Shown piece by piece: positions 6,212 through 50,176 of a DNA stretch of 64,000 bases. The notes beneath the pieces were generated by a model that saw only the letters and a program-made list of their open reading frames with translations, did not search any database and was not told the origin of the DNA. The position numbers were made by a program, and so were the translations under genes. Location of the stretch: contig OY969586.1 in assembly GCA_963701305.1 (NCBI GenBank), positions 3,863,937 through 3,927,936 of the forward strand, written 5' to 3'. Origin of the DNA: Candidatus Aminicenantes bacterium (lineage in GTDB: Bacteria; Acidobacteriota; Aminicenantia; Aminicenantales; CAVYOD01). Position 1 is the first letter of the stretch, and every line of letters starts with the position of its first letter.

Positions 6212-7258
6212 TTAGACACGCAAGCGCCGGCTGACTTCGCAGAGTTCGGAAAACACTTTTTCGGACAACTCCACGGGGAGCGATCCCGTCCCGCAGCTCG
6301 GGGTGACCAGGCATTGTTCCCAGATCAAGCTTTTATCGACTCCCTTGGAGGAGAGATTGTTGACCACGGTGTTCAGCTTCAAGACAAGACTTTCCGCCGA
6401 CTCCTGGCCTATCTTGGCGGACGTGGGCACGACCCCCCAGGCCAGGATTCCGCCCCGCTTCAGATACTCCCCGACCTTGTCTGCGTAGTAGGCAATCGTC
6501 TCGCCGAATTCAAAGGCGTCGAAGCTGATAATGTCGACGCCGGCGTCTATCAGGATCGTCCATTCCGTGTTGCCGCAGCAATGGACCCCGGCCAATCCCT
6601 CTTCCTTATGGACGGCCTCGATGACCTCATGGAGGTATTGGACGACGTCGGGCCTCTGGACGCTGACATAGGTCGATGACCCGAAAGCCGAGAGGATGGG
6701 TTCATCGATGAAACAGATCTGGGGGCGGCCCAGGAATTTAAACTTGTTGAGAAGCCAGCGGGCTTTCATCTCGGTCCCCTTGACGATGACATCCCGGAGA
6801 ACCTCGTTATAATAGACGGCCCGCTTGTTCTCATCCACCCGGCCCAGACCAATGGTGATGGGGCCCGTGACCTGGTTTTTGAATAACTTCAGGCAAGAGG
6901 GCTTCTGGGTGCTCAGCTTCTTTTCCATGGCATAGAGGCCCCGGCTGAAATCCGGGGAGATCCGGAAGTGCTCCAGGTTCTCCGTCATATAATTCTCGTA
7001 GAACTTTTCTAGCTCCGAGGTCATATCTTTGCTCGTGTCAAAGTACATCCGCTGCGTGGCCCGGTCGAGAACGACGCCGGGGAGTCCTTCGCAGTATTGG
7101 ATCTCCATACTCTCCCTGAAATCCGTGTGCGGCAGCTGGGGCCAGAAGGGTATTTCGGGAATGCTGTTCAAGACGACATCGCAGGCGGCCGCGGGGTCCG
7201 TGTGGGGCAGGCTCCCGATGGCCGTCGCCAGGCATTGAGGATGAAACGTCATGGGCAT
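6212..7258 (-). CDS. Short cobalamin-independent methionine synthase catalytic-domain (MetE core) family methyltransferase
   Basis: 348-aa ORF. It carries MetE C-terminal-domain-like motifs: FIDEPILSA (compare IDEPAL), VHCCGNT (HxC zinc ligands) and TPSCGTG (distal Cys ligand). It is about half the length of full MetE. Confidence 0.65.
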   Translation of the reverse strand: MPMTFHPQCLATAIGSLPHTDPAAACDVVLNSIPEIPFWPQLPHTDFRESMEIQYCEGLPGVVLDRATQRMYFDTSKDMTSELEKFYENYMTENLEHFRISPDFSRGLYAMEKKLSTQKPSCLKLFKNQVTGPITIGLGRVDENKRAVYYNEVLRDVIVKGTEMKARWLLNKFKFLGRPQICFIDEPILSAFGSSTYVSVQRPDVVQYLHEVIEAVHKEEGLAGVHCCGNTEWTILIDAGVDIISFDAFEFGETIAYYADKVGEYLKRGGILAWGVVPTSAKIGQESAESLVLKLNTVVNNLSSKGVDKSLIWEQCLVTPSCGTGSLPVELSEKVFSELCEVSRRLRV

Positions 7259-7388: not shown

Positions 7389-8195
7389 CTAAACGGGGTG
7401 GCCGTTTCTTGGAGTCGCGCCGGCCCGGTCGATGAGCGCCCGGGTGATGGCCAGGAATTCGCGCCGCAGGGGCTCGTCCAAAATGTCGATGAGCGTCTGG
7501 AACTTGAGGTCGGCGTCCCTGATCATCTCGCTGTAAGGCAGGAGACCGATGATCAGTCCGGGAACGAACTGGGAGACGATCCAATCTCGCTGCTCCCTGT
7601 TCTGAATTTTGTTGCCGATGACCGCAAAGGAATGAAGGCCGATCTCATCAGCCAATCTGAAGATGGTCCGGGCCGTGGCCACGCTTCGCTCGCCCGGTTC
7701 GACCACGATGACCAGGGTGTCTATCGCCCGGGCCGTGCCGCGGCCCAGATGCTCAATCCCGGCCTCCATGTCCACGACCACGGCCTCGTCCCGGTTGAGC
7801 AGGATTTCAGAGAGAAGGCTGCGGAGGAGGACATTCTCGGGACAGGCACAACCTTGGCCTCCCTTCCTCACCGCACCCATGACCAAGAGTTTTATCCCCC
7901 GGAAACGGATCGAGAGCCCCTCCGGGATATCGTCTACCCGTGGGTTGATCTTGAAGAGCTGCCCGAACTCCTTCGGGTTGGCCCCGGTCCTATCCCTGAC
8001 AAGGTCCCGCTGTGCCGAAACGGGAATGATCCGAGATGCTTCCGCCGCTGGAATCCCGAGGGCGGAAGCCAGGTTGGCGTCGGGGTCGGCGTCCACGGCC
8101 AGAACTTTGTAGCCTGCGGCGGCCAGGTAATGGGACAGAAGACCGGCGATCGTCGATTTCCCCGTTCCGCCTTTTCCAGAGATCGCGATTTTCAT
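7389..8195 (-). CDS. cooC: CooC-family Ni-insertion ATPase (second copy)
   Basis: P-loop GKGGTGKST and CxC motif GGQGCACPEN. ATG 8195-8193 shares one nucleotide with the upstream RACo stop (TGATG). The track's start at 8198 is a TTG one codon earlier. Confidence 0.8.
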   Translation of the reverse strand: MKIAISGKGGTGKSTIAGLLSHYLAAAGYKVLAVDADPDANLASALGIPAAEASRIIPVSAQRDLVRDRTGANPKEFGQLFKINPRVDDIPEGLSIRFRGIKLLVMGAVRKGGQGCACPENVLLRSLLSEILLNRDEAVVVDMEAGIEHLGRGTARAIDTLVIVVEPGERSVATARTIFRLADEIGLHSFAVIGNKIQNREQRDWIVSQFVPGLIIGLLPYSEMIRDADLKFQTLIDILDEPLRREFLAITRALIDRAGATPRNGHPV

Positions 8196-9961
8196 CAAGG
8201 ATCCGCCTCTGGAAATTCGAGGGATTCGATAAACTTTTTCTGGAATTCCGGGTCTGAAGCCAGGGAGACGTGGGAGACCGACTTGATCATCTTTTTGAGG
8301 AACGTCCGGCTCGGAAGGGAGAGCAGCAACTCCTTGGCTCCGGACAGAGAAGCGTTCCCGATAAAGACGATTTTCTTCCGAGCGATCGCAGGCAGGAGAC
8401 CGATGGCTTGGCTGTTTCGGACATTAAGATAGTTCCCAAACGCGCCGGCGATCAATACTCCATCGAGGTCTTCTGGGCTCAGGCCGCCCTTCTCCAGCAT
8501 CATCTTGACACCGGTCTTAACCGCAGCGATGGCCAGCTGAACTTCCCTGACATCTTTCTGGGTGATGGAAACTCCTTCTGCAACCGGGAGAATCCTTGAT
8601 TCGGGGACGATCTTGCCTTGAGGAGTGATATCTCCCTTCTGTTTGAACAGGGCGAGAAGGTCGATCAGGCCCGTGCCACAAATCCCGATGGGAGCGTGGT
8701 CAGCAATTGTGAAAACTTCAAGCTCCTTTCCGAATTGCGCCTTATAAATCGCGCCGGGAAGGGCCAGCATCCCTGCGCTGATATTCATTCCTTCGAACGC
8801 CGGCCCGGCCGCGGTCGATGTCGCCCACAGGGATTTTCCTTTCTTGAGAACGATCTCGCCGTTCGTGCCCAGGTCGACAAAAATAAAATTCCCCGGCCGT
8901 CGGGCCAGGTCCGAGGCCAGGATCCCGGCAGAGATATCCCCGCCGACAAAGCTCTTTATATTGGGGACGATGAAAGCCTTGGCCTGTTCGTTAAGCTCTA
9001 GTCCCAGCTCCGCAGCCCGGAGTTCGTCCAGGTTGGAAAAAACTGCGTTAAAAGGAGCAACGGCAAGGGTTTTAACCGGAAGCCCCAAGAGAAGATGGTT
9101 CATCGTTGTGTTCCCGGCCACGACGACCTCGTAAAGGCTGCTCTCGGGGATATGGTTTCGCTCTTCCAGCTCGTGAATGAGACCGTTGAGTTGCCGGATA
9201 ATGCTCAGCCGCAAATCCTCCAAGTTCTGATCGCTCAGAAAAGCATGCGAAATCCTGGACACAACGTCCGAGCCGAACCTGGACTGGCTGTTGAGCGCTG
9301 TGGCCAGATCGGCCGTTGCGCCCGTATGAAGGTCCACAAGTTCGACCACCACGGTCGTGGTTCCCAGGTCCACGGCGATCCCATAATTTTTGTCTGTCGT
9401 ATCGCCGGCCTCGAGAGCGAGGATCTCCTTATCATCGAAAATGACCGCGGTCAGCCGGCCCTGAGTTTCTTGGAGAAGTGCCGGGAGCTTCTTGAGAAGC
9501 GGGAGAGACACCCTCAGCCCTTTTCGCTTGAGCCCCTCTTCGACCAGTTCGAGGGCGGACGCCGGATTCAATATCCGCGGCGAGGGCACCTCGAGGAAGT
9601 ATTTTTTGACCGGCGGATTCACGACGACCGACATCCGCTGGCCCGTCGTGAGGATATTCGTCTCCCTGAACAAAGACCCGCGGGGAATCTTGACGGCGAG
9701 GCTTCCATGAATCTTGTAGAGGCACGAGAGTCTTGAACGGGCCGGCAGTTTTTTCTGCCGGATCAAGAGCGCTTCTTTCTCTGTGGGGGGCGGGATCTCT
9801 CCGCTGACGATTTCGACAAAACACTTGCCGCAGACTCCCCGTTTGCGGCAGTAAGTGCTCAGCGGAATTCCGGCTTCCTCGATTTTCTCGGCGAGACTAT
9901 CTCCCTCACAAACAGGAAGCCTCAGGGCGGGTGAGACAATTTCAAGACTGAGTTTCTTCAT
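8195..9961 (-). CDS. Reductive activator of corrinoid proteins (RACo/AcsV-like; 2Fe-2S ferredoxin domain plus ASKHA ATPase domain)
   Basis: 588-aa ORF. The N-terminal plant-type ferredoxin Cys pattern is CRKRGVCGKCFVE...C. The long C-terminal region has actin-fold-like motifs (AVDLGTTTV, VDLGTNGE). Confidence 0.75.
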   Translation of the reverse strand: MKKLSLEIVSPALRLPVCEGDSLAEKIEEAGIPLSTYCRKRGVCGKCFVEIVSGEIPPPTEKEALLIRQKKLPARSRLSCLYKIHGSLAVKIPRGSLFRETNILTTGQRMSVVVNPPVKKYFLEVPSPRILNPASALELVEEGLKRKGLRVSLPLLKKLPALLQETQGRLTAVIFDDKEILALEAGDTTDKNYGIAVDLGTTTVVVELVDLHTGATADLATALNSQSRFGSDVVSRISHAFLSDQNLEDLRLSIIRQLNGLIHELEERNHIPESSLYEVVVAGNTTMNHLLLGLPVKTLAVAPFNAVFSNLDELRAAELGLELNEQAKAFIVPNIKSFVGGDISAGILASDLARRPGNFIFVDLGTNGEIVLKKGKSLWATSTAAGPAFEGMNISAGMLALPGAIYKAQFGKELEVFTIADHAPIGICGTGLIDLLALFKQKGDITPQGKIVPESRILPVAEGVSITQKDVREVQLAIAAVKTGVKMMLEKGGLSPEDLDGVLIAGAFGNYLNVRNSQAIGLLPAIARKKIVFIGNASLSGAKELLLSLPSRTFLKKMIKSVSHVSLASDPEFQKKFIESLEFPEADP

Positions 9962-10593
9962 CGGAGCAGGCTCCCGACCAGGCTCACGGCCGAGGCCGCG
10001 TCCGGGGCGTAGCCATCGGCCTTGATTTCGTCAGCATAGGATTTGGTAACAGGGGCCCCGCCGATGATAACCTTGACCTTCTTCCTCAGCCGGGCCGCCT
10101 CCAGGGCATCGATCACTTCTCTCATGTAACTCATCGTCGTGGTGAGGAGCGCCGAGAGGGCGACGACGTCGGGGTGTTCTTTTTTGGCTGAACTCAAGAC
10201 GCGCTCTTTGGAGACATCGACGCCGATGTCCAGGACCTCGTAACCCGCGCCTTCCAGCATCATTCCGACGATCTTTTTCCCGATATCATGGAGGTCTCCC
10301 TTGACTGTGGCCAGGACCACCTTGCCCTTGAATCGGAAGCCGGTCTGGGTCAAGGCCGGCCTCAATATTTCCAGGCCGGCGTTCATCGCCCGGGTGGCGA
10401 TGAGAACCTCGGGGATAAAAACCTCGTTCCTCTTGAATTTCTGGCCGATGGTGTTCATCCCCAGGACTAGGCCGACGTTTAAGACCCGATCCGGCGGGAC
10501 GGACGATACCAGAGCCCGGCGGACGAGTTCCTTGACGGCGGCCGAATCTCCATTTTCAACAGCAGAGGCGATGTCCTGGAGGAGCTTGATCAT
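9958..10593 (-). CDS. Small cobalamin-binding corrinoid protein (MtbC/MttC/MtgC-like)
   Basis: 211-aa ORF with an N-terminal helical cap domain and the B12-binding DxHxxG motif (GDLHDIGKK). Overlaps the RACo start by 4 nt (ATGA). Confidence 0.85.
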   Translation of the reverse strand: MIKLLQDIASAVENGDSAAVKELVRRALVSSVPPDRVLNVGLVLGMNTIGQKFKRNEVFIPEVLIATRAMNAGLEILRPALTQTGFRFKGKVVLATVKGDLHDIGKKIVGMMLEGAGYEVLDIGVDVSKERVLSSAKKEHPDVVALSALLTTTMSYMREVIDALEAARLRKKVKVIIGGAPVTKSYADEIKADGYAPDAASAVSLVGSLLR

Positions 10594-10648
10594 CGTGCAT
10601 ACTCTACCATATTTGCTCCGTCAAGGGGTAGCTTTTTTTACCCATCTC

Positions 10649-10688
10649 TTGTATAATTTGGCTAGATTTGCAGGGCAAAAAGAAGCGG
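10649..10688. promoter_or_regulatory. Copy 2 of the ~40-nt conserved element (divergent region between the corrinoid protein and the PocR-AraC gene)
   Basis: TTGTATAATTTGGCTAGATTTGCAGGGCAAAAAGAAGCGG. It contains TATAAT on the plus strand. On the minus strand it reads TTGCCC-N17-TATACA. Confidence 0.45.
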
Positions 10689-10693
10689 TCAAG

Positions 10694-25441: not shown

Positions 25442-28078
25442 TTATTTAACAACCGCTAAGAAAATCGCGTTGAAGAGCAGCTTGAACGTTCCTTTTGTCT
25501 GGCCGCGGTGATGAACGCTCATTCCGAGAAGGATAATTTTTCCCTTTCCCAGCGGAATCTCGACGGCGGCCGCCTTGTTGTAAAGATATTTTTCTCCGAC
25601 CATCCAGCCGCTGAGCATGAGATTCTCGGCGGGATATCTTGCCACAACCGCCGGTGGCTCTTTTTCCGTGAACGCGGGCAGGACGTCGAAAGTCGGACTC
25701 TCGGCGAAGAAAGCGGCGGCCTCTTTAGGCATTCCATAAGCGACGGGGTTGTTTTGGTCAAAAACCGCGCTGACGAGAAGCCCCGAGGCGAAGAAATCCT
25801 CGGGCTTGAGCGATTTCAGGACGTTCCTCAGGGGAAGCTTGAATTCATCAATCGCCAGGTCACATGCTGAACCCAAGGTTATGAGCGTCCCGCCCTGTTC
25901 GACAAAGCGCTTGAGGTTGGCGACGCCGGCCTTAGTGATTCCGCCCACATAATCCGGAGGCATGGTTCCCTTCATCCGACCATTGAGGATGGAACGGGCC
26001 GACTGGCTCGGCAAGATGATGGCATCAAAGTGATTCCCCAGCTCTCCCGCTCTCATCTCAGCGTCATGGAGAAGAGAATAAGAAAAACCGTGATTTTCCA
26101 GGATAAGCTCGGTCCAGCCTTCATCCATCGCCGGCGCCCAGGACTGATAAAGACCCACCCGGGGGGATCGAAGCTTTGTGAGTTTGAGATCGGGAGGTCT
26201 ATCGATTTTTTGAATATTCAAATAAAGCTCTCGGGTCGCTTTCTCCAGAAGGGAGTCGGATGCTCCTGTGGAGGGCACCATGAAATCCCCGGCTGAAAAA
26301 TCCAACCCTCCGCTCTTGAAGGGAGCCTGAGCTCGAGAAATATCGAGTCCAGCTTTGAGAAGACGATTCACGGCCGTGAATGAAGCATTCGGCTGGCACG
26401 AGATAACAAATGAATGACCGCCATGTCCTCCGATCCTGCCTTGGGGCCATTCCATAGTCCCGACGCGCTTCATCTTAACTTCGAAGGCGGTATTCATCGT
26501 CACGGCATTGACGCCCATCTGGAGAGGAAGGGTCCAGCCTAGGACGTCATAGGTTTGGAGTGGAGGGATCTTCAGCTTGATCGGCTCGACGATGCTCTGC
26601 CAGAGAGAAGGATGAAACCTCAGGTCAGGATAATGCTGGAATTCAAAGAGGGTCTTCAGGAATCGCCCAAACGGCTGGCTGGTCGGAAGAATGTACGTTC
26701 CCACGGGATAATCGATCCCATCCGACCGGAAAGGAACTTCGCTCTTATAGACTTCGATGTCGAGTGTGATCAGGTTCTGAATAAGCTCGCCTGTGACTCC
26801 CGGATCCCTCTGCTCAAAAGGAATGATCCAGCCGTAGGGCGGCTCTTTGGAGTAGCGCTCCATGGTCTCTTTTCCCATCGCGTACTTTGCGTAGAGCAAT
26901 TCTTCGCGATGCTTGGCCGCCAAGTCGAGGACGGATTTCGACGCGGTCAGGCAGTATTCGACCGCGTCCCGGAGATGCCACCATCCGCCGCGCCATGGAT
27001 TGGTGAAGAACATCGAGCTCACGAAATCCTTGTATTCCTCGGGGAAGTCCTCGGCCGGGAAAAATTGGGGTGTTGCATAGTTGAAAAGAAACGTCTCGGA
27101 GAAAGTCGAGATGATGTTATGAAAATCGCAGACTTGCGTAACGTAGCCCGGATACCAAGTATCGAACAGAAACCGAGATACGACACCCTGTTTGCCCTCG
27201 GTTTCGAAGCCCAGGGCCATGGCCGTCCCGATCAGATTCTGCCAGCGGAGGAGCAGGGGATGGAGGTTGGGGTTCGTGGGCTCGCAATCGGGCGGAACAA
27301 AGATGAGTGTTGGATAAGGAGATTCCTGGTGATGGTTATAAAAAATATGGGGATACCATTCGTGATTGACGACCTGATTGATATTGCGCGTCTCCGAGAC
27401 GCTGAGCATAAAAGAGTCCCTGTTATTGTCGTGTCCGATATACTTCTGGTAAAGCCAGGGCAGGGGGCAAGTTTCGTAGGGCGTCCCGAGGTTCTTCTGA
27501 TACCAGCGCGCGACCATATCCATTCCGTCCGGGTTGGGGAGGACAAGCATGGCTACGACTTCGTCCCTGATCTTCTTGAATTTCGGAGATTCTTCCACGG
27601 CCAGATCATATGTCAGCTGAAGGATGTGCTGGGCCGGAGCGACTTCGGTGGCGTGGAGCCCGCCGTCGATCCAGACGATGGCTTTCCCCCGAGCCGCCAG
27701 GCTTTGGGCTTCGTTCTCGCGCACGCCCCTGACCAAGGAAAGTCGCTTGGAGAGTGCCTTGATATCCTCAAGCTTGGCGAGGTTTTCCTCAGAGGAGACG
27801 GCGGCAAAGACCATCGCCCGACCTTCTGACGACTTTCCGTACTCAAAAAGCTTCACCCTCTTGGTCGAACTTTCTAAGGCTTTCCAGTAAGCGACGGCCT
27901 GCTCGTAGTCAAGGAGATGGAAGTCCGCTCCGACTTTGAAGCCAAAAAACTCCTCCGGCGCAGGGATTTCCACGCTTTCCGCCCCCGCTAAGACCTGACC
28001 TATGCAAAGGCAAGAAAGTGCAATTACAAACAAGCAAAATTTCCGCGCTGATATTTTCATTAGTCCTTTACTCCTCAC
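25442..28078 (-). CDS. Large exported M14 family zinc carboxypeptidase (about 880 aa, paralogue of 36645-39305)
   Basis: Signal peptide and the M14 zinc motif HxxE in WIDGGLHATEVAP. A long C-terminal extension is shared with the paralogue. Confidence 0.8.
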   Translation of the reverse strand: MRSKGLMKISARKFCLFVIALSCLCIGQVLAGAESVEIPAPEEFFGFKVGADFHLLDYEQAVAYWKALESSTKRVKLFEYGKSSEGRAMVFAAVSSEENLAKLEDIKALSKRLSLVRGVRENEAQSLAARGKAIVWIDGGLHATEVAPAQHILQLTYDLAVEESPKFKKIRDEVVAMLVLPNPDGMDMVARWYQKNLGTPYETCPLPWLYQKYIGHDNNRDSFMLSVSETRNINQVVNHEWYPHIFYNHHQESPYPTLIFVPPDCEPTNPNLHPLLLRWQNLIGTAMALGFETEGKQGVVSRFLFDTWYPGYVTQVCDFHNIISTFSETFLFNYATPQFFPAEDFPEEYKDFVSSMFFTNPWRGGWWHLRDAVEYCLTASKSVLDLAAKHREELLYAKYAMGKETMERYSKEPPYGWIIPFEQRDPGVTGELIQNLITLDIEVYKSEVPFRSDGIDYPVGTYILPTSQPFGRFLKTLFEFQHYPDLRFHPSLWQSIVEPIKLKIPPLQTYDVLGWTLPLQMGVNAVTMNTAFEVKMKRVGTMEWPQGRIGGHGGHSFVISCQPNASFTAVNRLLKAGLDISRAQAPFKSGGLDFSAGDFMVPSTGASDSLLEKATRELYLNIQKIDRPPDLKLTKLRSPRVGLYQSWAPAMDEGWTELILENHGFSYSLLHDAEMRAGELGNHFDAIILPSQSARSILNGRMKGTMPPDYVGGITKAGVANLKRFVEQGGTLITLGSACDLAIDEFKLPLRNVLKSLKPEDFFASGLLVSAVFDQNNPVAYGMPKEAAAFFAESPTFDVLPAFTEKEPPAVVARYPAENLMLSGWMVGEKYLYNKAAAVEIPLGKGKIILLGMSVHHRGQTKGTFKLLFNAIFLAVVK

Positions 28079-28088
28079 CCCTTACTCC

Positions 28089-29540
28089 TTACTGTTTTTC
28101 AATTGATCGTATGATCCGCTCAAACTCAGCCTCCAATTTGGGATCGAGTGGCTCGGGCTTATGTTTCTCGAGTATGCTTTTTGCCCTATCCCGGGCCCAG
28201 CTGCGGGCGTCGTCCTTCTTCATTTCCCAGGCGCTATAAGGCCGCCGATCCATCAAGCTGTTGAGCCAGAGTTCTCTCGTATGCTTCCTGGTATGTTGGT
28301 GGGTCAGGAAGCTCCCTCCCGGCCCGACATCGCGGATGGCCTGCAGGGCGAGCCTCTCCTTGTCAACCCGGATCCCCTCCATCATCTTGGCTACGATGCC
28401 GAATATCTCGCAATCCATGATCATCTGCTCGAATGACCAGATCGTACTCCCGTTGAGCTGTCCCACGCCGGCGAGCATGTCTGCCATCACGGCCGAGGCC
28501 ATAAAAGTGGAAAGCGAGTTCTCGACACCAGCTTGCCAATTAGGCTCTTTAGCGCCGGTGGCAAACGAGCCCATGGACAGGGGAACATTGTAGAAGTCGG
28601 CCAGCTCATTGCCTGCCGCCGCGAAGAGAAAGTCCTCCGGCCCTCCTCCAGTGTAGGCGCCGCTCCGAAGGTCCATCACTGACTGAGCGGCGGCATAGAA
28701 GACGGGAGCGCCCGGATAGGCCAGCTCGATCATCGCCAAGGCGCTCAACACCTCCGCGTTGCCGACCACAAGGTTTCCTGCCATTGTCGCCGGCGCAGAG
28801 GAGGCGCAGGAGGCCATGGTCATGAATCCGACCGGGAGGCCGGCCTCGGCACCGGCCAGGGCCGCCTCCAGGCTCCCGGCGTCCTGAGCAAGTGGGGAAA
28901 CGGAGCACTCCATGATCGAGAGCAATGGCCGGAGCCGCAGGGCTTCGCGGCTGCCCGCCAGGCACACCGCCATCTCCACCGCACCCAGGGCTTCTCTTTC
29001 ATCGTAGACGCTTTCTGTTTGGACGTGTTTCGTCGAATTCTTCCAGATGGCCGAGAGCTCGTAAAGCCCACGAGTTTCGGGAGGGGCGTCCTGGGCCGAG
29101 ACCGGGACCCAATGAAGGGCCACTTCATCCAGATAGTCAGCTACTCTGGCGATGTCGGCCACATCCTTGAGACAAGAACGCCGCCTCTCGCCTGTGACGA
29201 GATCCAAAACTTCCACACCGCACCCGTCGGTTCCGACGTAGACATGATTCCCGTCCAGTGCGAGGTCGAGGCCGGGGTCACGCGCGGCGAGAACATAAGT
29301 GGGCGGAGCTTTTTTCAGCGCTTCTTCAATAAGCCGCCCAGGCACTTTGACGATCATTGAGCTCCTGTCCACCTTGGCGCCGGCCTCTTCCCAAATCTTC
29401 ATCGCTTTGATAGAGGGAAACCTCACGCCAACCGCTTCGATCGTCTCGAGCGTTGCCAGGTGGATTTTCCGGATGTCTCCGGGGCTTAGAACACTCAGCT
29501 TAAGACGAGGGTTTGAAATCGATTTTATTTTTCCTGGCAT
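28089..29540 (-). CDS. MttB-superfamily (trimethylamine methyltransferase family) protein without pyrrolysine
   Basis: Uninterrupted ORF of typical MttB length with no in-frame TAG. ATG 29540 (MPGKIKSISNPRLKLSVLSPGDIRKIH...) follows GAAGGAA. The track start at 29579 is 13 codons upstream. Confidence 0.8.
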   Translation of the reverse strand: MPGKIKSISNPRLKLSVLSPGDIRKIHLATLETIEAVGVRFPSIKAMKIWEEAGAKVDRSSMIVKVPGRLIEEALKKAPPTYVLAARDPGLDLALDGNHVYVGTDGCGVEVLDLVTGERRRSCLKDVADIARVADYLDEVALHWVPVSAQDAPPETRGLYELSAIWKNSTKHVQTESVYDEREALGAVEMAVCLAGSREALRLRPLLSIMECSVSPLAQDAGSLEAALAGAEAGLPVGFMTMASCASSAPATMAGNLVVGNAEVLSALAMIELAYPGAPVFYAAAQSVMDLRSGAYTGGGPEDFLFAAAGNELADFYNVPLSMGSFATGAKEPNWQAGVENSLSTFMASAVMADMLAGVGQLNGSTIWSFEQMIMDCEIFGIVAKMMEGIRVDKERLALQAIRDVGPGGSFLTHQHTRKHTRELWLNSLMDRRPYSAWEMKKDDARSWARDRAKSILEKHKPEPLDPKLEAEFERIIRSIEKQ

Positions 29541-29613
29541 CGTCGTTCCTTCTCTACCCCTAGATTTCTGATATATCACTTAATTCTGCATTGGAAATAA
29601 CCAGGCATCCTCG

Positions 29614-29663
29614 GGGAAGGATGGGGCCCCCGGCCCGCCCCTGTGCAGGGGCCCCATCCTTCC
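29614..29663 (-). other. GC-rich 17-bp perfect inverted repeat between the permease and MttB genes
   Basis: GGGAAGGATGGGGCCCC (29614-29630) and GGGGCCCCATCCTTCCC (29647-29663) flank a 16-nt loop. No U-run follows it on the transcribed strand. Confidence 0.5.
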
Positions 29664-29695
29664 CAGGCGCAGATTTTAATCACCATGATTTTCGC

Positions 29696-31117
29696 TCATC
29701 CTCCTTCTGCGGTGGCTCTGGATTTCGCCGCCTTCCTCCGCCAATAAAAATAGGCCGGGATGCCCAGGCAGAGAATAAAGAACCCGATCAGCGATTTCCT
29801 CGGCTGGGCGATGACCGTATTCAAGAAGATCCAGATATTGATCCCCACCCAAAAAACCGGGAGGATCGGATAACCCCAAGCTCTATAGGGCCGCGGCCTG
29901 TCCGGTTGTTTGTGCCTGAGGACAATGATGGAGAGACCGGTCGCCGCAAAAAAAATGACCAAAGCAAAAACAACGAATTCATAGAGATCCTGGTATGTTC
30001 CGGTCAAGCAGAGAAGGCTGGACCAGATGGCCTGACCGATAAGAGCAGCGGAGGGCACATGGTACTTCGGATGGATTCGGGCCATGCTCTTAAAGAAAAG
30101 GCCGTCTTCGGCCATGGCGAAATAGACCCGCGGTCCGAAAAGAATGTTAGCACTCAAACAGCCGAAGATGGAGACAAGGATGGCCGCCGAGATGACGGAA
30201 GTCGCCGCCGGTCCGAAGAGTTGAGTGGAAGCCAGCTCGCCGACCCGGGCAACGCCCTTCATCTTCTCCACAGGAAGGGCCAGGACATAGACGACGTTGA
30301 TGAGGAGATAAGTCACAGTGATCGCCAGCGTGCCCAGGATGAGGCCCAGGGGGAGGTTCCGCTCCGGCTTCTTGATCTCCTCGGCCGTACAGTTGACGGC
30401 GTACCAACCGTCATAGGTCCACAGGGCCGCCATGAGCGCCAGTCCGAAGTATTTGATCGTCCCGAGTCCAAATCCAGGGCCCCCGGAAAAAAGTTGACTC
30501 AGGCTTGTTACCCCCGCTTTCTTTCCAAGGAGGAAGCCGAAAAGCACAATGGCAAAGACCGAGCCGATCCTCAGAAAAGTGAAAACATTCTGGACCACGA
30601 CACCAGTCTTGATCCCGATATAGTTGACTGCGGTGAGGAGAATGATCGAGGCCGCGGCGACCAACTGGCCGGCCGAAAGAGAATAGGGGAGGCCGAATAA
30701 ACTCGTCTTGATCAAAACCGCCTGGTTGGAGATCGCGGGGAAGAAATATCCGAGGAATTCGGCAAACCCGACGGCTAGGGCGGCAATCCCGCCGCACATG
30801 ATGAACCAAAAGAATCCCCAGCCGTAGAAATATCCGGCGAAAGGTCCATAGGCTTCGCGGATATAGATGTATTGGCCGCCGGCTTGAGGATACATCGCTC
30901 CCAGCTCGGCGCAGGAGAGAGCCCCGCACAAGGTGATAAATCCTCCGACAATCCAGACGAGAAGGAGCAGACCCGGAGAGGGAAGTCCCTGGACCATAAA
31001 GCCAGAGGTCATGAAGATCCCGGAGCCGATAACCGAACCTATAACCAGAAAGGTTGTATCGAGAAGATTCATCTTCCTTAAGAGATGAGGCTTGCCGGCG
31101 TTTTCAGTGTTGGCCAT
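29696..31117 (-). CDS. APC superfamily amino acid permease
   Basis: 473 aa, polytopic, with an N-terminal GSVIGSGIF motif. Confidence 0.85.
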   Translation of the reverse strand: MANTENAGKPHLLRKMNLLDTTFLVIGSVIGSGIFMTSGFMVQGLPSPGLLLLVWIVGGFITLCGALSCAELGAMYPQAGGQYIYIREAYGPFAGYFYGWGFFWFIMCGGIAALAVGFAEFLGYFFPAISNQAVLIKTSLFGLPYSLSAGQLVAAASIILLTAVNYIGIKTGVVVQNVFTFLRIGSVFAIVLFGFLLGKKAGVTSLSQLFSGGPGFGLGTIKYFGLALMAALWTYDGWYAVNCTAEEIKKPERNLPLGLILGTLAITVTYLLINVVYVLALPVEKMKGVARVGELASTQLFGPAATSVISAAILVSIFGCLSANILFGPRVYFAMAEDGLFFKSMARIHPKYHVPSAALIGQAIWSSLLCLTGTYQDLYEFVVFALVIFFAATGLSIIVLRHKQPDRPRPYRAWGYPILPVFWVGINIWIFLNTVIAQPRKSLIGFFILCLGIPAYFYWRRKAAKSRATAEGG

Positions 31118-31132
31118 GATTTTATTTACCTT

Positions 31133-32095
31133 TCAAATCCTCAAGACCTTGGCCAGGACATCCTCGGGCATCGGCTTGACCGTCCGGCCTTGCCTTCCGG
31201 ATAGGGCCGTGGCCTTGGTCAGGGAATTGAGGATGGATTCCTGGACCGCCTCGGAACAGGCGGCGGAGATCCTCTCTAACCAAGAATCGTCGACCATCAG
31301 GTAATCAAAAACAAAGGGCCTTTCTCCGACCATGCTCATGGCATTCGCCGTAGAAAAGAAGATTCCGGATACAGACTCGGCCGGGTTCATCTTAACCTGC
31401 GTTGGCCCCAAGCCGGCTAGAACCGAGCGTAGGACCTGGCGAATCTGGTGAGGAAACAAGGGGACGTCCGTTCCCATGACCAGCGATAGGGAGCCCTCGG
31501 CGAAATCGCTGTTCCCGTGGTTGGACGCCGCCAGGACGCCACAGGTGAATTCTTGTCTGCCGATCAAGAGCCGGCGTGAGGATGTTCCGATTCCGCCCTT
31601 CCAATCAAAAGCACGCAGTCCGACGCCCACGCCCACCGAACCCTGCTCCACTTTTCCGTCTTTGGCGTTGGAAAGGGTCTGCAAAATTTCTTTCTCATCA
31701 AAAGAGAACTTAGTCATTTCGTTAAGATAAGAGTCATTCAGGCCAATGACCACGGGCGGCCAGACTTCGTCACGGTTCAGAGAAAAGCCGTAGGAGAGAA
31801 CTGCATTATAGGCCCGGCCGACATTGAACGAATTCGTGATCACGACGGGAGAATTCAGATAGCAAAAATCGTCCAGGACCTCGTAGCCTGTCATCTCCCC
31901 ATTTCCCTTGAGGCAAAGATTAGCGCAAAAAAGACGAAGCGGCTTCTCCATCGGATAGGGGATGACGGCCGTCAGCCCGGTCCTGATCGCGGCTGCGCCG
32001 CCGGCCGGCCCGGGGAGGTCTTTTTCGATCGTCAGATGAGCGACCTTAACGCCTTTGACATCGGTGATCGCGTTATCCATGGATCTTGGCTCCAA
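31133..32095 (-). CDS. DmpA/BapA (S58, P1) family aminopeptidase, no signal peptide
   Basis: 320 aa. Family motifs KGGIGTSS and a probable autoprocessing site EG/SLSLVMGTDVPL. Confidence 0.7.
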   Translation of the reverse strand: MEPRSMDNAITDVKGVKVAHLTIEKDLPGPAGGAAAIRTGLTAVIPYPMEKPLRLFCANLCLKGNGEMTGYEVLDDFCYLNSPVVITNSFNVGRAYNAVLSYGFSLNRDEVWPPVVIGLNDSYLNEMTKFSFDEKEILQTLSNAKDGKVEQGSVGVGVGLRAFDWKGGIGTSSRRLLIGRQEFTCGVLAASNHGNSDFAEGSLSLVMGTDVPLFPHQIRQVLRSVLAGLGPTQVKMNPAESVSGIFFSTANAMSMVGERPFVFDYLMVDDSWLERISAACSEAVQESILNSLTKATALSGRQGRTVKPMPEDVLAKVLRI

Positions 32096-33272
32096 TTCTT
32101 CCGTGCTTTTTCATGATCTCCTCGACCTGATCAACCGGCAGGCCGTAGGATGTATTGCCGTCGCGGCCGACCGTTGTTTCGGCCATGCACAAAGCATTGA
32201 GGATCGCCTCCTGGGTTGCATCGACCGTGGCCTGATAAAGGGGCGTGATCGAAAGATCGTTGATTCCCTTGAGGCTGTGGAAGTCGGTCTGCCCGGCTCT
32301 CGGAATTCGGTAGGCCGTGGAAAAGGCGAGGATGATGTCGCCGCTTCCCGTGCTCGAGATCGCTCCTGTCTGAGCTAACCCCATGGCCACTCTTTTTCCG
32401 ATCTTCCTGAGCTGAAAGGGAAGGAGGGGCGCATCCGTCGCGGCCAAAAGGATGATCGACTTTGTCTTCCCCGCCTTTTCTTTGAAACCGACGATCTCAT
32501 TTCCGACCGGGACTCCATCGATCCGGAGCTGGTTCCGGCCGGCTGTATTCGTCATGACCAGGACGCCCACCGTGTTTTGGTTCTTTGTGCGTCGCGAAGA
32601 AGTGCCGATCCCGCCTTTGAAACCGAACGACGTCATCCCGATGCCTCCGCCAACGGCGCCTTCCGCGACGGCCCCGCTTCGCGCGCTTTCGATGGCCTTC
32701 ACGACATCCGCTTCCGTAATTTGGCGGCTCTCGGTGTGGCTCAGGAAATCGTCAAAGCATTCGGCTACTACCGGATAAGCCATCGCCTCCTTGTCACCCA
32801 TCTCCGGGTTCAGCCCGCAAAGATATTTTGTCGCCGCGCTGAGGACGATGCCGACGTTATACGTCCCGGTCAAGAAAACAGGCGTCTTGAGCAACCCTGT
32901 ATTTTCGAGAGCCGCGATCCCGGTCATTTCGCCCCAGCCGTTCTGGATGAAGCAGGAGGCAAACAAATTTTCCCGGTAGACGTTGTCGGAATGAGGAAGG
33001 ATGACGGTGACCCCCGTCCTCACCGCTCCCCGGCCTTGGCCTTTGATGATTGTCGTCTGACCGACCCGGACGCCTTCAACATCGGTGATGGCGTTTAAGG
33101 GGCCGGGTTCGAGACTCCCGATCCGGATCCCCAATTCGCGAAGCCGACGTCGCTTGCCGCCAGAGGACGCGACGCGCTTTTCAGACTCTTGCAGGATCTC
33201 CTCGATCAGGTTTGTCCCGGGGAGAATGGAAAAGCTCAAAATCGAGTTCCGTAGAAAATCGCGGCGTTCCAT
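32073..33272 (-). CDS. DmpA/BapA (S58, P1) family aminopeptidase with Tat-type signal
   Basis: 399 aa. N-terminal MERRDFLRNSILSF. Family motifs KGGIGTSS and SIILLAATDAPL. SD AAGGAG lies upstream. Confidence 0.75.
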   Translation of the reverse strand: MERRDFLRNSILSFSILPGTNLIEEILQESEKRVASSGGKRRRLRELGIRIGSLEPGPLNAITDVEGVRVGQTTIIKGQGRGAVRTGVTVILPHSDNVYRENLFASCFIQNGWGEMTGIAALENTGLLKTPVFLTGTYNVGIVLSAATKYLCGLNPEMGDKEAMAYPVVAECFDDFLSHTESRQITEADVVKAIESARSGAVAEGAVGGGIGMTSFGFKGGIGTSSRRTKNQNTVGVLVMTNTAGRNQLRIDGVPVGNEIVGFKEKAGKTKSIILLAATDAPLLPFQLRKIGKRVAMGLAQTGAISSTGSGDIILAFSTAYRIPRAGQTDFHSLKGINDLSITPLYQATVDATQEAILNALCMAETTVGRDGNTSYGLPVDQVEEIMKKHGRIGAKIHG

Positions 33273-45715: not shown

Positions 45716-46408
45716 ATGAAACACAGAGATATGGCGCTCGTCTTGATTGGCTTATTGCTTCATTTGGCCTGCTCTGCACCCGAGAAGAAGGCAAAAGAGA
45801 GACTCGCTTCTAGGAATATCGACTATTCTGAAAAGAGTTTTTTGGATTCAGTGGCCAGAGGTCAGACCGAGATCGTCAGTTTGTTCCTGGCATCAGGCAT
45901 GTCGCCTAATACTCATCGGGGAGAGATGACGGCATTGTTGGAGGCGTGCAGGAGAGGGAAGACTCACAACGAGATTGCGGCCGCGTTGATTGAAGCCGGG
46001 GCAGAGATCAATTCCAGAGACCCTTACGGCGTTACTCCTCTCATGTTCGCGGCCATCAGCGGGTCTCCGAAGACCATGGAATTGCTCATGAGCAAGGGTG
46101 CAGATGTGCGTGCCAAAGATGAGGATGGTCGGACAGCTCTCGTAGAAGTCCTCACGACAGAGAACGAGATGCCTCCGGAAATAGTTGAAGAGCTTGTCCG
46201 TGCCGGCGCGGATGTCAATGTCCGAATCTATGGGGGAATGACTCCTCTTATGATCGCCGCCGGGGGGAATCCGAGAACCCTGAGGGCATTAATCGAGGCC
46301 GGGGCTGATCTGAAGGCCAGAGACGACCAAGGAGCAACACCCTTGAGATGGGCCAAAGACTCTCCGGAGAATTATCAGCTGCTCAAGAACGCCGGAGCCA
46401 AGGAATGA
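45716..46408 (+). CDS. Ankyrin-repeat protein with N-terminal signal/lipoprotein-like sequence
   Basis: 230 aa with several ANK repeats (GVTPLMFAAISGSPKTMELLMSKGADV and others). The N-terminus is hydrophobic and ends in LAC. Confidence 0.8.
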   Translation: MKHRDMALVLIGLLLHLACSAPEKKAKERLASRNIDYSEKSFLDSVARGQTEIVSLFLASGMSPNTHRGEMTALLEACRRGKTHNEIAAALIEAGAEINSRDPYGVTPLMFAAISGSPKTMELLMSKGADVRAKDEDGRTALVEVLTTENEMPPEIVEELVRAGADVNVRIYGGMTPLMIAAGGNPRTLRALIEAGADLKARDDQGATPLRWAKDSPENYQLLKNAGAKE

Positions 46409-50011: not shown

Positions 50012-50176
50012 TTTTGACTCCTTTTTTGGCTCTCGGCTTCGAGATCCCTTTCCCCCGGTGACGGTCCCCGAGGAGAGACTGATTTTTAAAAATGAGCTTA
50101 ACACATATGATCAGCTACGGTCAAGAATTTGACTCCGTGCGTCGGCTGTGTTAAAAGACGGCCAGGAGGGGTGACC

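What the first reader, a model, noticed from the sequence alone, without database searches (positions are those of the whole stretch)
28089..33272. Non-pyrrolysine MttB-family methyltransferase embedded in a peptidase/permease operon
Seen in the sequence: one minus-strand gene string carries a Tat-DmpA aminopeptidase, a second DmpA paralogue, an APC amino acid permease, a GC-rich hairpin, an MttB homologue with no in-frame TAG, and an 880-aa M14 carboxypeptidase.

Established knowledge: non-Pyl MttB members characterised so far demethylate quaternary amines (glycine betaine, proline betaine, carnitine, gamma-butyrobetaine) onto a cognate corrinoid protein that needs an activase.

In this window the only small corrinoid protein and activase sit in the ACS operon (8195-10593). 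No corrinoid protein or MT2 gene is adjacent to the MttB gene.

Inference: the substrate could be a methylated amino acid released from peptides. Examples are an N-terminally or side-chain trimethylated residue such as trimethyl-lysine, or proline/alanine betaine. Methyl groups would then be routed to the Wood-Ljungdahl module. The lysine-centred catabolic context of the rest of the window makes trimethyl-lysine a testable guess.
Basis: partly seen in the sequence, partly recalled or inferred. Interest (0 to 1): 0.7.

Follow-up and report, generated by a model that had tools for sequence, protein, structure and literature searches.

The report
Uncharacterised MttB methyltransferase clade beside permease
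A probable Aminicenantes bacterium has a methyl-removing enzyme of the trimethylamine-methyltransferase family that lacks the substrate-binding residues of every characterised relative and sits, as in many related genomes, in one operon with an amino-acid transporter and exported peptidases, so it probably harvests methyl groups from a still unknown methylated amino-acid-like compound.

Summary
One minus-strand operon (33272-25442) encodes a Tat-signal S58/DmpA peptidase, a signal-less S58 paralogue, a LAT-type APC permease, a unique GC-rich hairpin, a 483-aa non-pyrrolysine MttB homologue (29540-28089, no in-frame TAG) and an 878-aa M14 peptidase. The MttB protein belongs to a large, tightly conserved clade (61-96% identity across Aminicenantes, Acidobacteriota, Chloroflexota, KSB1 and Desulfaltia). 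It is only 33% identical to glycine-betaine MtgB and 31% to Pyl-MttB. All four MtgB substrate residues are replaced by invariant C/S/(L,A)/S, including the Arg conserved in every characterised non-Pyl member. The window has no adjacent corrinoid protein, but orthologues elsewhere sit directly beside one. In Chloroflexota they also have RACo, a pterin-binding MT2 and MTHFR; in other Aminicenantes they sit inside the acs operon. It is therefore very probably a real substrate:corrinoid methyltransferase that uses the MtgC-like corrinoid protein and RACo at 8195-10593. The permease-MttB pair is translationally coupled in relatives, which points to an imported amino-acid-like substrate. Trimethyl-lysine stays an untested guess: lysine genes flank orthologues in some relatives, but only within one lineage. 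I file this as a new variant of a known kind, of moderate interest.

The parts
32073..33272 (-). S58 (DmpA/BapA-family) Ntn-hydrolase aminopeptidase, 399 aa, with a twin-arginine export signal; first gene of the operon
   Evidence: PF03576 at 344 bits. Best solved relatives are the P. horikoshii D-aminopeptidase homologue 2drh (E 4e-84), BapA and DmpA, with the Ser nucleophile motif K-SIILLAATDAPL aligned. RRDFLR motif, conserved in orthologues.
31133..32095 (-). Second S58 paralogue, 320 aa, no signal peptide; overlaps the upstream S58 gene by 23 nt
   Evidence: PF03576 at 208 bits. DmpA 1b65 E 2e-43, with G-S nucleophile aligned. 31% identical to the first S58. Always paired with it in 16 loci, and always signal-less.
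29696..31117 (-). APC-superfamily permease of the L-type amino acid transporter (LAT) kind
   Evidence: AA_permease_2 at 200 bits; TIGR00911 LAT at 216 bits, below cutoff. Closest solved structures are the bacterial LAT exchanger BasC 6f2g (E 7e-61), then y+LAT1, xCT and b0,+AT. Orthologues are 64-98% identical and lie immediately upstream of MttB in 14 loci, overlapping it in some.
29614..29664 (-). GC-rich palindromic hairpin in the 155-nt APC-MttB spacer
   Evidence: Sequence read. Fold -63.4 kcal/mol for the spacer, z = -3.0. No U-tract, unique in the window, no Rfam family. Present, and enlarged, only in closest relative L008.
28089..29540 (-). Non-pyrrolysine MttB-superfamily methyltransferase, 483 aa, member of an uncharacterised conserved clade
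   Evidence: PF06253 at 289 bits; TIGR02369 at 431 bits, below the 525 cutoff. No in-frame TAG; Ala327 at the Pyl position. AF2 model TM 0.81 to both MtgB and MttB. Clade signature C107/S322/A327/S365 is invariant in 40 sequences.
25442..28078 (-). M14-family peptidase, 878 aa, with N-terminal signal-like sequence; last gene of the operon, 10 nt after MttB
   Evidence: PF00246 at 57 bits over residues 63-221, N-terminal half of the profile only. Hydrophobic N-terminus. Orthologue follows MttB in L008, L010 and L019.
9958..10593 (-). Candidate cognate corrinoid protein, 211 aa, first gene of the CODH/ACS operon
   Evidence: B12-binding_2 plus B12-binding. Best NCBIfam models are MtgC-type and 'methyltransferase cognate corrinoid protein', both below cutoff. 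42-48% identical to corrinoid proteins encoded directly next to MttB orthologues in Chloroflexota, KSB1 and Anaerolineae, against 37-39% to those next to the second MttB type in Aminicenantes.
8195..9961 (-). RACo/AcsV-like reductive activase of corrinoid proteins
   Evidence: Fer2, RACo_linker, Raco_middle and RACo_C_ter. NF040756 AcsV at 381 bits, below cutoff. RACo homologues lie beside MttB orthologues in 12 loci.
6212..7258 (-). Possible methyl acceptor enzyme: 348-aa protein with HCC...SCG motifs, resembling MesB-type core methionine synthases
   Evidence: No Pfam, NCBIfam or PDB hit. Motifs read. Resemblance to MesB (PMC7857596) rests on motif pattern and acs-operon position only; not verified.

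Best explanation
The gene at 29540-28089 encodes a substrate:corrinoid methyltransferase (MT1) of a distinct, uncharacterised clade of the non-pyrrolysine MttB superfamily.

Proposed mechanism, with the basis of each step:
1. Exported exopeptidases work on peptides in the periplasm: the Tat-dependent S58 aminopeptidase, possibly carrying its signal-less paralogue, together with M14 and the nearby M28. This is inferred from family and signals.
2. The LAT-type APC permease imports an amino-acid-like compound that carries an N-methyl, most likely quaternary, group. It may exchange it for the demethylated product. This is inferred from the conserved, translationally coupled APC-MttB pair.
3. In the cytoplasm the MttB homologue transfers one methyl group to the Co(I) form of a stand-alone MtgC-like corrinoid protein. 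In this genome that is most likely the 211-aa protein at the head of the acs operon, kept active by the adjacent RACo. This is inferred from orthologous loci, where such genes are adjacent.
4. The methyl group then goes to tetrahydrofolate and acetyl-CoA synthase, and/or to homocysteine. This is inferred from the Pterin_bind/MTHFR, acs and PF02574 genes beside orthologues.

Shown directly: the family and fold; absence of pyrrolysine; absence of all known betaine-binding residues; and the conserved gene neighbourhoods. The substrate is not identified. It differs from glycine betaine and probably from the other acidic betaines handled by characterised members.
For: Family and fold: PF06253 at 289 bits; AF2 model with TM 0.81 to MtgB and to MttB.

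Distinct clade: 3476 hits, the best 120 at 71-93% identity, from several phyla. Identity is 33% to MtgB and 31% to MttB. Invariant C/S/(L,A)/S replace MtgB Y97/R312/H348/F356, and Ala sits at the Pyl position.

Corrinoid dependence:
- A corrinoid protein is directly adjacent in 13 loci and lies within 10 kb in 19 of about 41 distinct loci.
- RACo is present in 12 loci.
- L031 has divergent RACo-MTHFR-Pterin_bind next to CoP-MttB-MttB.
- L013, L015, L026 and L027 place the orthologue at the end of ACS-CooC-AcsD-AcsC-RACo-PF02574-CoP-MttB.

Permease link: APC is immediately upstream in 14 loci, with gaps of 0-40 nt or overlap. The permease is LAT/BasC-like.

Peptidase link: S58-S58 lies upstream in 16 loci, with a conserved Tat motif.

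Window partner: the corrinoid protein is MtgC-like and lies next to RACo. In a neighbour-joining tree it groups on the side of the corrinoid proteins adjacent to orthologues.

Literature: one corrinoid protein can serve many MttB paralogues that are not adjacent to it (PMC12478193).
Against: - No biochemical data exist for any member of this clade.
- In the window no corrinoid protein, MT2 or activase lies within 17 kb of the gene.
- The window's corrinoid protein sits on a long branch, so its cognate status is weak.
- The permease and peptidase associations are confined to the Aminicenantes/Acidobacteriota lineage and may partly reflect inherited synteny. Chloroflexota and KSB1 orthologues lack them.
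- The AF2 model is poorly confident exactly in the active-site segment, residues 324-365, so the residue equivalences rest on sequence alignment.
- Loss of the aromatic pair and the Arg could also mean the enzyme does not bind a quaternary amine at all.
Confidence: 0.6

Rival explanations
1. One reading: the substrate is N6-trimethyl-lysine, or another methyl-lysine, released from proteins. The demethylated lysine then enters the lysine catabolic genes of the window.
For: - In L016 and L024 the genes KamA-M20-DcuC-S58-S58-APC-MttB-AlaDH_PNT-saccharopine DH lie in one co-directional run with gaps of 0-316 nt.
- A Tat-signal HDAC-like amidohydrolase precedes S58-S58-MttB in L025 and L043.
- Aminotran_3, thiolase and CoA-transferase genes, compatible with the end of a lysine fermentation route, flank orthologues in L001, L010, L019, L025 and L046, and in Chloroflexia L005-7.
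- The window's KamA passes the lysine 2,3-aminomutase equivalog cutoff.
- The known acid-binding Arg and His are replaced by small residues, and invariant Asp105 and Glu110 flank Cys107. This would suit a larger substrate carrying an extra ammonium group (inference).
Against: - The context is confined to one lineage. Most Chloroflexota and KSB1 orthologues have no lysine genes nearby.
- The papers searched contain no report linking MttB proteins to trimethyl-lysine.
- Only one demethylation step is provided for, so lysine itself would not be produced.
- S58 aminopeptidases are not needed to release a side-chain-methylated residue.
Confidence: 0.12
2. It is an ordinary glycine betaine methyltransferase (MtgB), as non-Pyl MttB genes are routinely labelled in metagenome studies.
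For: This is the default annotation practice (PMC6081815). The corrinoid protein in the window scores best against MtgC-type models.
Against: - 33% identity to D. hafniense MtgB, no closer than to Pyl-MttB.
- None of the four residues shown by mutagenesis and a ligand-bound structure to bind glycine betaine is kept (PMC13080624).
- The linked transporter is a LAT-type amino acid permease. By background knowledge, betaines usually enter through BCCT or ABC carriers.
Confidence: 0.05
3. The substrate is a free methylated osmolyte or metabolite not derived from peptides. The peptidase genes are neighbours only through inherited synteny in a peptide-degrading lineage.
For: - Orthologues in Chloroflexota, KSB1 and Anaerolineae lie in CoP-MttB-MttB cassettes without S58, M28 or M14 genes.
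- The whole window is crowded with exported peptidases, so chance adjacency is likely for some of them.
Against: - The S58-S58-APC-MttB order is kept across orthologues down to 70% identity, with short or overlapping spacers.
- Some rearranged loci (L010, L019, L022) still keep S58-S58 next to MttB.
Confidence: 0.3
4. The main purpose is methionine synthesis rather than energy or carbon gain. The methyl group passes from the corrinoid protein to homocysteine through a zinc methyltransferase, as in the split MtgBCDE system of marine bacteria.
For: - A PF02574 homocysteine S-methyltransferase gene lies between RACo and the corrinoid protein in L013, L015, L022, L026 and L027.
- The window has a 348-aa protein with HCC...SCG motifs between RACo/CooC and CODH.
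- Precedents are in PMC12478193 and PMC7857596.
Against: - Chloroflexia locus L031 has Pterin_bind and MTHFR instead.
- The MesB-like identity of the window protein is unverified.
- This rival does not exclude the main explanation; both routes may operate.
Confidence: 0.25
5. The protein is not a methyltransferase: a TIM-barrel relative recruited to another reaction on an amino acid.
For: All known substrate-binding residues are lost and an invariant Cys sits in the pocket. No corrinoid gene is adjacent in the window.
Against: Corrinoid protein genes are directly adjacent in 13 loci from at least three phyla, with a complete MT2/activase set in L031.
Confidence: 0.05

Closest known systems
MtgB, glycine betaine:corrinoid methyltransferase of Desulfitobacterium hafniense (PDB 2qne, 9yce)
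   Same: Same superfamily (PF06253), same TIM-barrel fold (TM 0.81), no pyrrolysine. Expected to methylate a small B12-binding corrinoid protein that needs a RACo/RamA-type activase.
   Different: 33% identity. Y97, R312, H348 and F356 are replaced by Cys, Ser, Ala/Leu and Ser. Linked to a LAT-type amino acid permease and S58 peptidases. In this window it is not next to mtgC or mtgA.
MttB, pyrrolysine-containing trimethylamine methyltransferase of Methanosarcina barkeri (PDB 7xcl)
   Same: Same family and fold (TM 0.81). The best NCBIfam model is TIGR02369.
   Different: 31% identity and below the TIGR02369 cutoff (431 against 525 bits). Ala (GCC) sits where MttB has pyrrolysine, and there is no in-frame TAG.
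MtcB, MtpB, MtyB and MthB of Eubacterium limosum (carnitine, proline betaine, gamma-butyrobetaine, phosphocholine)
   Same: Non-Pyl MttB members that share one non-adjacent corrinoid protein (MtqC) and feed the Wood-Ljungdahl pathway. This is the same logic as proposed here.
   Different: According to PMC13080624 all of them keep the Arg equivalent to MtgB R312, which binds the acidic group. This clade has an invariant Ser there.
MtgBCDE split methyltransferase/methionine synthase of Ruegeria pomeroyi (PMC12478193)
   Same: MttB-family MT1 enzymes donate methyl groups to a shared corrinoid protein, which also serves a homocysteine methyltransferase. Relatives of this window place a PF02574 gene beside the corrinoid protein.
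   Different: That system is from aerobic Alphaproteobacteria and uses glycine betaine. There is no permease/peptidase operon and no acs operon.
DmpA and BapA aminopeptidases (peptidase family S58)
   Same: Both S58 genes keep the self-processing Ser nucleophile region and align over the full length.
   Different: Here they form a conserved pair, one Tat-exported and one signal-less, linked to a permease and an MttB gene. The papers I searched turned up no such pairing or link, but I made no search aimed at S58 family members.

Membership tests
MttB superfamily (PF06253) | Significant full-length match to the family profile | tested here: met
   289.5 bits against a cutoff of 25, covering residues 8-489.
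MttB superfamily (PF06253) | TIM-barrel fold of MttB/MtgB | tested here: met
   AF2 model with pTM 0.81. Foldseek TM 0.80-0.82 to 2qne, 9yce, 7xcl and 4yyc. Model confidence is low for residues 324-365.
Pyl-dependent trimethylamine methyltransferase MttB (TIGR02369) | In-frame UAG (pyrrolysine) at the active-site position | tested here: not met
   No in-frame TAG. The aligned residue is Ala327, codon GCC.
Pyl-dependent trimethylamine methyltransferase MttB (TIGR02369) | Score above the curated equivalog cutoff | tested here: not met
   431.5 bits against a cutoff of 525.
MtgB glycine betaine methyltransferase | Cation-pi pair Y97 and F356 | tested here: not met
   Cys107 and Ser365 at the aligned columns, invariant in the clade. 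Residue roles are from PMC13080624.
MtgB glycine betaine methyltransferase | Carboxylate-binding R312 and H348 | tested here: not met
   Ser322 (invariant) and Ala/Leu at the aligned columns.
Characterised acidic quaternary-amine MttB members (MtcB, MtpB, MtyB, MthB) | Conserved Arg equivalent to MtgB R312 (PMC13080624) | tested here: not met
   Invariant Ser322.
Characterised acidic quaternary-amine MttB members (MtcB, MtpB, MtyB, MthB) | Phylogenetic placement inside one of their clades | not tested
   Their sequences could not be obtained. There are no PDB entries, and the supplement that was read held no sequences.
Three-component corrinoid methyltransferase system (MT1 + corrinoid protein + MT2 + activase) | Cognate corrinoid protein gene next to the MT1 gene | tested here: inconclusive
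   Not adjacent in the window; the nearest is 18 kb away at 9958-10593. Directly adjacent to orthologues in 13 other loci.
Three-component corrinoid methyltransferase system (MT1 + corrinoid protein + MT2 + activase) | MT2 (methylcorrinoid:THF or thiol methyltransferase) present | tested here: inconclusive
   The window has no Pterin_bind, URO-D or PF02574 gene, only an unverified HCC...SCG protein. L031 has Pterin_bind plus MTHFR. L013, L022 and similar loci have PF02574.
Three-component corrinoid methyltransferase system (MT1 + corrinoid protein + MT2 + activase) | Methyl transfer from substrate to Co(I) | not testable with these tools
   Needs an enzyme assay.
Peptidase family S58 (DmpA/BapA) | Profile match and self-processing Ser nucleophile | tested here: met
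   344 and 208 bits. K-S and G-S align with the DmpA Gly-Ser cleavage site.
Tat-exported protein | Twin-arginine motif (S/T)RRxF(L/I)K followed by a hydrophobic stretch | tested here: met
   MERRDFLRNSILSFSILPG. The motif is found in 13 of 16 orthologues. Export itself was not tested.
APC superfamily, LAT-type amino acid transporter | Profile match and closest solved relatives | tested here: met
   AA_permease_2 at 200 bits. BasC E 7e-61, then y+LAT1, xCT and LAT1. It lies below the cutoffs of all NCBIfam equivalogs, so the substrate is unknown.

The most novel reading that the evidence does not exclude
This clade is a corrinoid-dependent demethylase for a protein-derived quaternary amino acid, with N6-trimethyl-lysine or an N-terminally trimethylated residue as the leading candidates. 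The substrate would be imported by product/precursor exchange through the LAT-type permease after release by the exported S58 pair. This would give anaerobic peptide degraders a route from methylated protein residues to acetyl-CoA or methionine. It would be the first MttB-family enzyme for an alpha-amino-acid substrate, and the first anaerobic pathway for methyl-lysine.
Probability: 0.15. Interest if true: 0.8.

Novelty: new variant of a known kind. Interest (0 to 1): 0.55.

Why it matters
Non-pyrrolysine MttB genes are very abundant in anoxic sediments, soils and guts. Metagenome studies usually label them glycine betaine methyltransferases and count them as such in methane and carbon budgets.

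This clade comprises thousands of sequence clusters across at least five phyla. It lacks every residue known to bind glycine betaine or the other acidic betaines, so that label is probably wrong for it.

Its tight coupling to an amino-acid permease and exported aminopeptidases in Aminicenantes suggests that peptide degraders also harvest methyl groups from a methylated amino-acid-like compound. They would pass those groups to the Wood-Ljungdahl pathway or to methionine synthesis.

Identifying the substrate would add a new specificity class to the family. It would also sharpen models of methyl-group flow and of competition with methylotrophic methanogens.

Tried and rejected
1. Full phylogeny against MtpB, MtcB, MtyB and MthB. 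I could not obtain their sequences: there are no PDB entries, the supplement of PMC10805028 held tables but no FASTA in the part read, and no supplement was held for PMC13080624. I used the published residue criterion instead.

2. Riboswitch or other known RNA upstream of the operon or in the hairpin. Rfam found nothing at gathering threshold, and only meaningless microRNA-like hits at E near 1.

3. The hairpin as an intrinsic terminator or conserved attenuator. Rejected: it has no U-tract and is absent from all orthologous loci except the closest relative.

4. Pocket analysis on the AlphaFold model. Coordinates are not returned, and the active-site segment 324-365 has pLDDT below 50, so only alignment-based equivalences are reported.

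5. My first crude ORF calling missed genes in GC-rich Chloroflexota loci. I replaced it with tblastn mapping.

6. A minus-strand ORF at 50111-50947 that I first listed as a gene is probably spurious. The plus strand there encodes a C69 peptidase.

7. Identification of the 348-aa acs-operon protein. Pfam, NCBIfam and PDB sequence searches all came back empty.

8. Literature searches for MttB with trimethyl-lysine, or with peptidase contexts, returned nothing relevant.

Full report
**Observation**

ORF listing and profile searches confirm a five-gene minus-strand operon:
- an S58/DmpA-family protein of 399 aa (33272-32073);
- a second S58 protein of 320 aa (32095-31133, overlapping the first by 23 nt);
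- an APC permease of 473 aa (31117-29696);
- an MttB-family protein (ORF 29579-28089);
- an M14-family protein of 878 aa (28078-25442).

The first S58 begins MERRDFLRNS, a twin-arginine motif. The second has no signal peptide.

The 155-nt spacer between permease and MttB holds a roughly 19-bp GC-rich hairpin at 29614-29664. It has no U-tract and occurs once in the window.

The likely MttB start is the ATG at 29540 behind a GAAGGA ribosome-binding site. This gives 483 aa, the length of nearly all homologues. The gene has no in-frame TAG and ends in TAA.

Profile searches of the window's larger ORFs find one small B12-binding protein (10593-9958) and one RACo activase (9961-8195). They lead an operon that continues with a CooC-like ATPase, a 348-aa unknown, CODH, ACS, CooC, AcsD and the start of AcsC.

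**What the MttB homologue is**

It matches PF06253 over its full length (289 bits). It stays below the curated cutoff of the pyrrolysine MttB equivalog (431 against 525 bits). An AlphaFold model (pTM 0.81, mean pLDDT 74.5) superposes equally well on glycine betaine MtgB and on Pyl-MttB, with TM 0.81 for each.

A database search gives 3476 hits at E <= 1e-20. The best 120 are 71-93% identical and come from Aminicenantes, Acidobacteriota, KSB1 and Chloroflexia. A genome scan adds Desulfaltia and Anaerolineae, and shows an Aminicenantes MAG (L008) as the closest relative with identical synteny. The window is therefore probably from an Aminicenantes bacterium.

Against characterised proteins the identity is only 33% (D. 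hafniense MtgB) and 31% (M. barkeri MttB).

A 2026 study defined the MtgB substrate site by mutagenesis and a ligand-bound structure. Y97 and F356 hold the quaternary nitrogen, and R312 and H348 hold the carboxylate. R312 is conserved in MtcB, MtpB, MtyB and MthB as well (PMC13080624).

In the pairwise HMMER alignment and in a MAFFT alignment of 44 family members, this clade has different residues at those positions:
- Cys107 (TDG-C-GVE);
- Ser322 (PL-S-MGS);
- Ala or Leu at the H348 position;
- Ser365 (LNG-S-xIW);
- Ala327 at the pyrrolysine position.

C107, S322, A327 and S365 are invariant in 40 clade members. The protein is therefore neither a Pyl-MttB nor an MtgB. It fails the one residue criterion shared by all characterised non-Pyl members.

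**Comparative gene neighbourhoods**

I mapped window proteins and a few extra queries onto 46 fetched loci, about 41 of them distinct. Three architectures recur.

(A) Sixteen loci, from MAGs labelled Aminicenantes or Acidobacteriota, from MAGs labelled "uncultured Eubacteriales" and from one unlabelled metagenome contig, show [M28] - S58(Tat) - S58 - APC - MttB.
- This string is followed by the M14 gene, by AlaDH_PNT plus saccharopine dehydrogenase, or by an Amidohydro_3 gene.
- The permease stop and MttB start are 0-40 nt apart or overlap.
- The Tat motif of the first S58 and the lack of a signal in the second are conserved.

(B) In Chloroflexota, KSB1 and Anaerolineae (15 loci) the orthologue lies in a cassette of corrinoid protein - MttB - second MttB type. 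The second type is 25-28% identical to the first. In L031 this cassette is divergent from RACo - MTHFR - Pterin_bind, which makes a complete MT1/corrinoid/MT2/activase set.

(C) In other Aminicenantes and in Desulfaltia (L013, L015, L026, L027) the orthologue ends an operon: ACS - CooC - AcsD - AcsC - RACo - PF02574 homocysteine methyltransferase - corrinoid protein - second MttB type - [aminotransferase - APC] - MttB. L022 combines A and C.

In total:
- a corrinoid protein gene is directly adjacent in 13 loci;
- a corrinoid protein gene lies within 10 kb in 19 loci;
- RACo is present in 12 loci.

**Partners in the window**

The 211-aa protein has the B12-binding_2 plus B12-binding architecture. 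It scores best against MtgC-type and "methyltransferase cognate corrinoid protein" models, though below their cutoffs. So it is a methyltransferase-type corrinoid protein, not part of the corrinoid iron-sulfur protein.

It is 42-48% identical to the corrinoid proteins encoded directly beside orthologues in architecture B, against 37-39% to those beside the second MttB type in architecture C. A neighbour-joining tree places it on the former side, but on a long branch.

The window has no second MttB, Pterin_bind or PF02574 gene. The 348-aa acs-operon protein has no database match. It does carry HCC and SCG motifs, reminiscent of the zinc site of MesB-type core methionine synthases, which cluster with Wood-Ljungdahl genes (PMC7857596). 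That identification is only a lead.

**Most likely mechanism**

Shown: family, fold, absence of pyrrolysine, absence of the known betaine-binding residues, and the three conserved neighbourhoods.

Inferred:
- The protein is a genuine substrate:corrinoid methyltransferase, because corrinoid, activase and MT2 genes surround its orthologues in several phyla.
- In this genome it uses the stand-alone corrinoid protein and RACo at the head of the acs operon. A non-adjacent, shared corrinoid protein is normal for this family in E. limosum and R. pomeroyi (PMC12478193).
- The substrate enters through the LAT/BasC-like permease and is therefore amino-acid-like. Exchange against the demethylated product is plausible for this transporter type (my background knowledge).
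- The exported S58 pair and the M14/M28 peptidases may release the substrate from peptides.
- The methyl group ends up in methyl-THF and acetyl-CoA and/or in methionine.

I put about 0.75 on the methyltransferase role, about 0.5 on an amino-acid-like substrate, and 0.6 on the statement as a whole.

**The trimethyl-lysine idea**

Comparative data add some support.
- In L016 and L024, KamA, M20, DcuC, S58, S58, APC, MttB, AlaDH_PNT and saccharopine dehydrogenase form one co-directional run.
- A Tat-signal HDAC-like amidohydrolase precedes S58-S58-MttB in L025 and L043.
- Aminotransferase, thiolase and CoA-transferase genes flank many orthologues, including Chloroflexia loci.
- The window's KamA passes the lysine 2,3-aminomutase cutoff.

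Against it:
- Most of this context is confined to one lineage rich in amino-acid catabolic genes.
- The Chloroflexota and KSB1 cassettes have no such genes.
- No paper in the library links MttB proteins to trimethyl-lysine.

It remains a reasonable first substrate to test. I give it about 0.12-0.15.

**Comparison with known systems**

The system works like the MtgB/MtqC-type three-component methyltransferase systems of acetogens, and like the split MtgBCDE system. As a family member it belongs to the MttB superfamily. It fails the membership tests for Pyl-MttB and MtgB, and the shared Arg criterion of the other characterised members.

Three features are unusual:
- the invariant C/S/A/S active-site signature;
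- the coupling to a LAT-type permease and a Tat/non-Tat S58 pair;
- the constant companionship, in other phyla, with a second MttB type that has His at the R312 position.

**Verdict**

This is a real, conserved and so far uncharacterised specificity class within a known enzyme family: a new variant of a known kind. Interest is moderate (0.55). The family is known to hold many orphan paralogues. This one, however, is abundant, cross-phylum, probably mis-annotated as mtgB, and its context gives a concrete, testable substrate class.

Noticed in passing
window 6212-7258 (-): A 348-aa protein lies between the CooC-like gene and CODH in the acs operon. It has no Pfam, NCBIfam or PDB match, but carries VHCCGN and TPSCGTG motifs like the zinc site of MesB-type folate-independent methionine synthases, which cluster with Wood-Ljungdahl genes.
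   Followed up: partly
L009 11462-18186: In a relative labelled 'uncultured Eubacteriales', the S58-S58-APC-MttB string is followed by another MttB paralogue (43% identical, no in-frame TAG, Ser at the Pyl position). After that come a PylS-like class II tRNA synthetase fragment, a corrinoid protein and pylB/pylC/pylD-like genes.
   Followed up: partly
L004, L013, L015, L022, L023, L026-L037, L039-L041: A second MttB-family type, 25-28% identical to the window protein, has His at the MtgB R312 position and Leu/Ala/Gly/Ser at the Pyl position. It accompanies the orthologue in about 20 loci from several phyla. This suggests the two enzymes act in one pathway or share one corrinoid protein. It is absent from the window.
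   Followed up: partly
L013 6736-7668, L022 14382-15272 (also L015, L019, L026, L027): A stand-alone PF02574 homocysteine S-methyltransferase gene sits between RACo and the corrinoid protein inside or beside the acs operon of related Aminicenantes. This looks like a split methionine synthase fed by MttB-type enzymes.
   Followed up: partly
window 59114-60494 (-): The DcuC/YfcC-type carrier gene is split into two overlapping ORFs (218 and 259 aa) by a frameshift. Relatives have a single gene of about 459 aa. This is either a pseudogene or an assembly error.
   Followed up: partly
window 50129-51826 (+): This stretch encodes a C69-family peptidase, 68% identical to the one upstream of the S58 genes in L009. 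The overlapping minus-strand ORF 50111-50947 is probably spurious.
   Followed up: partly
window 12099-13799, 46348-47472, 32073-33272: Three hydrolases carry twin-arginine motifs: the Amidohydro_3 D-aminoacylase-like protein (MNRRDFIKTS), the HDAC-like amidohydrolase (ARRAFLRL) and the first S58. This suggests a set of folded, cofactor-bearing periplasmic amidases alongside many Sec-type peptidases (M14 x3, M28, S9, AAT/C45 x2).
   Followed up: no
window 29614-29664 and L008 about 9830-9930: The palindromic GC-rich element between permease and MttB is shared only with the closest relative. There the same outer arms enclose a longer insert, which is behaviour typical of a small mobile or expanding palindromic repeat.
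   Followed up: partly
window 10301-11959 (+): A PocR-sensor/AraC-type regulator is transcribed divergently from the corrinoid protein-RACo-acs operon. Its longest ORF overlaps the corrinoid gene, so the true start is probably further downstream.
   Followed up: no
window 25442-28078, 36645-39305: Two paralogous proteins of about 880 aa match only the N-terminal half of the M14 carboxypeptidase profile. The remaining roughly 650 residues have no Pfam match.
   Followed up: no
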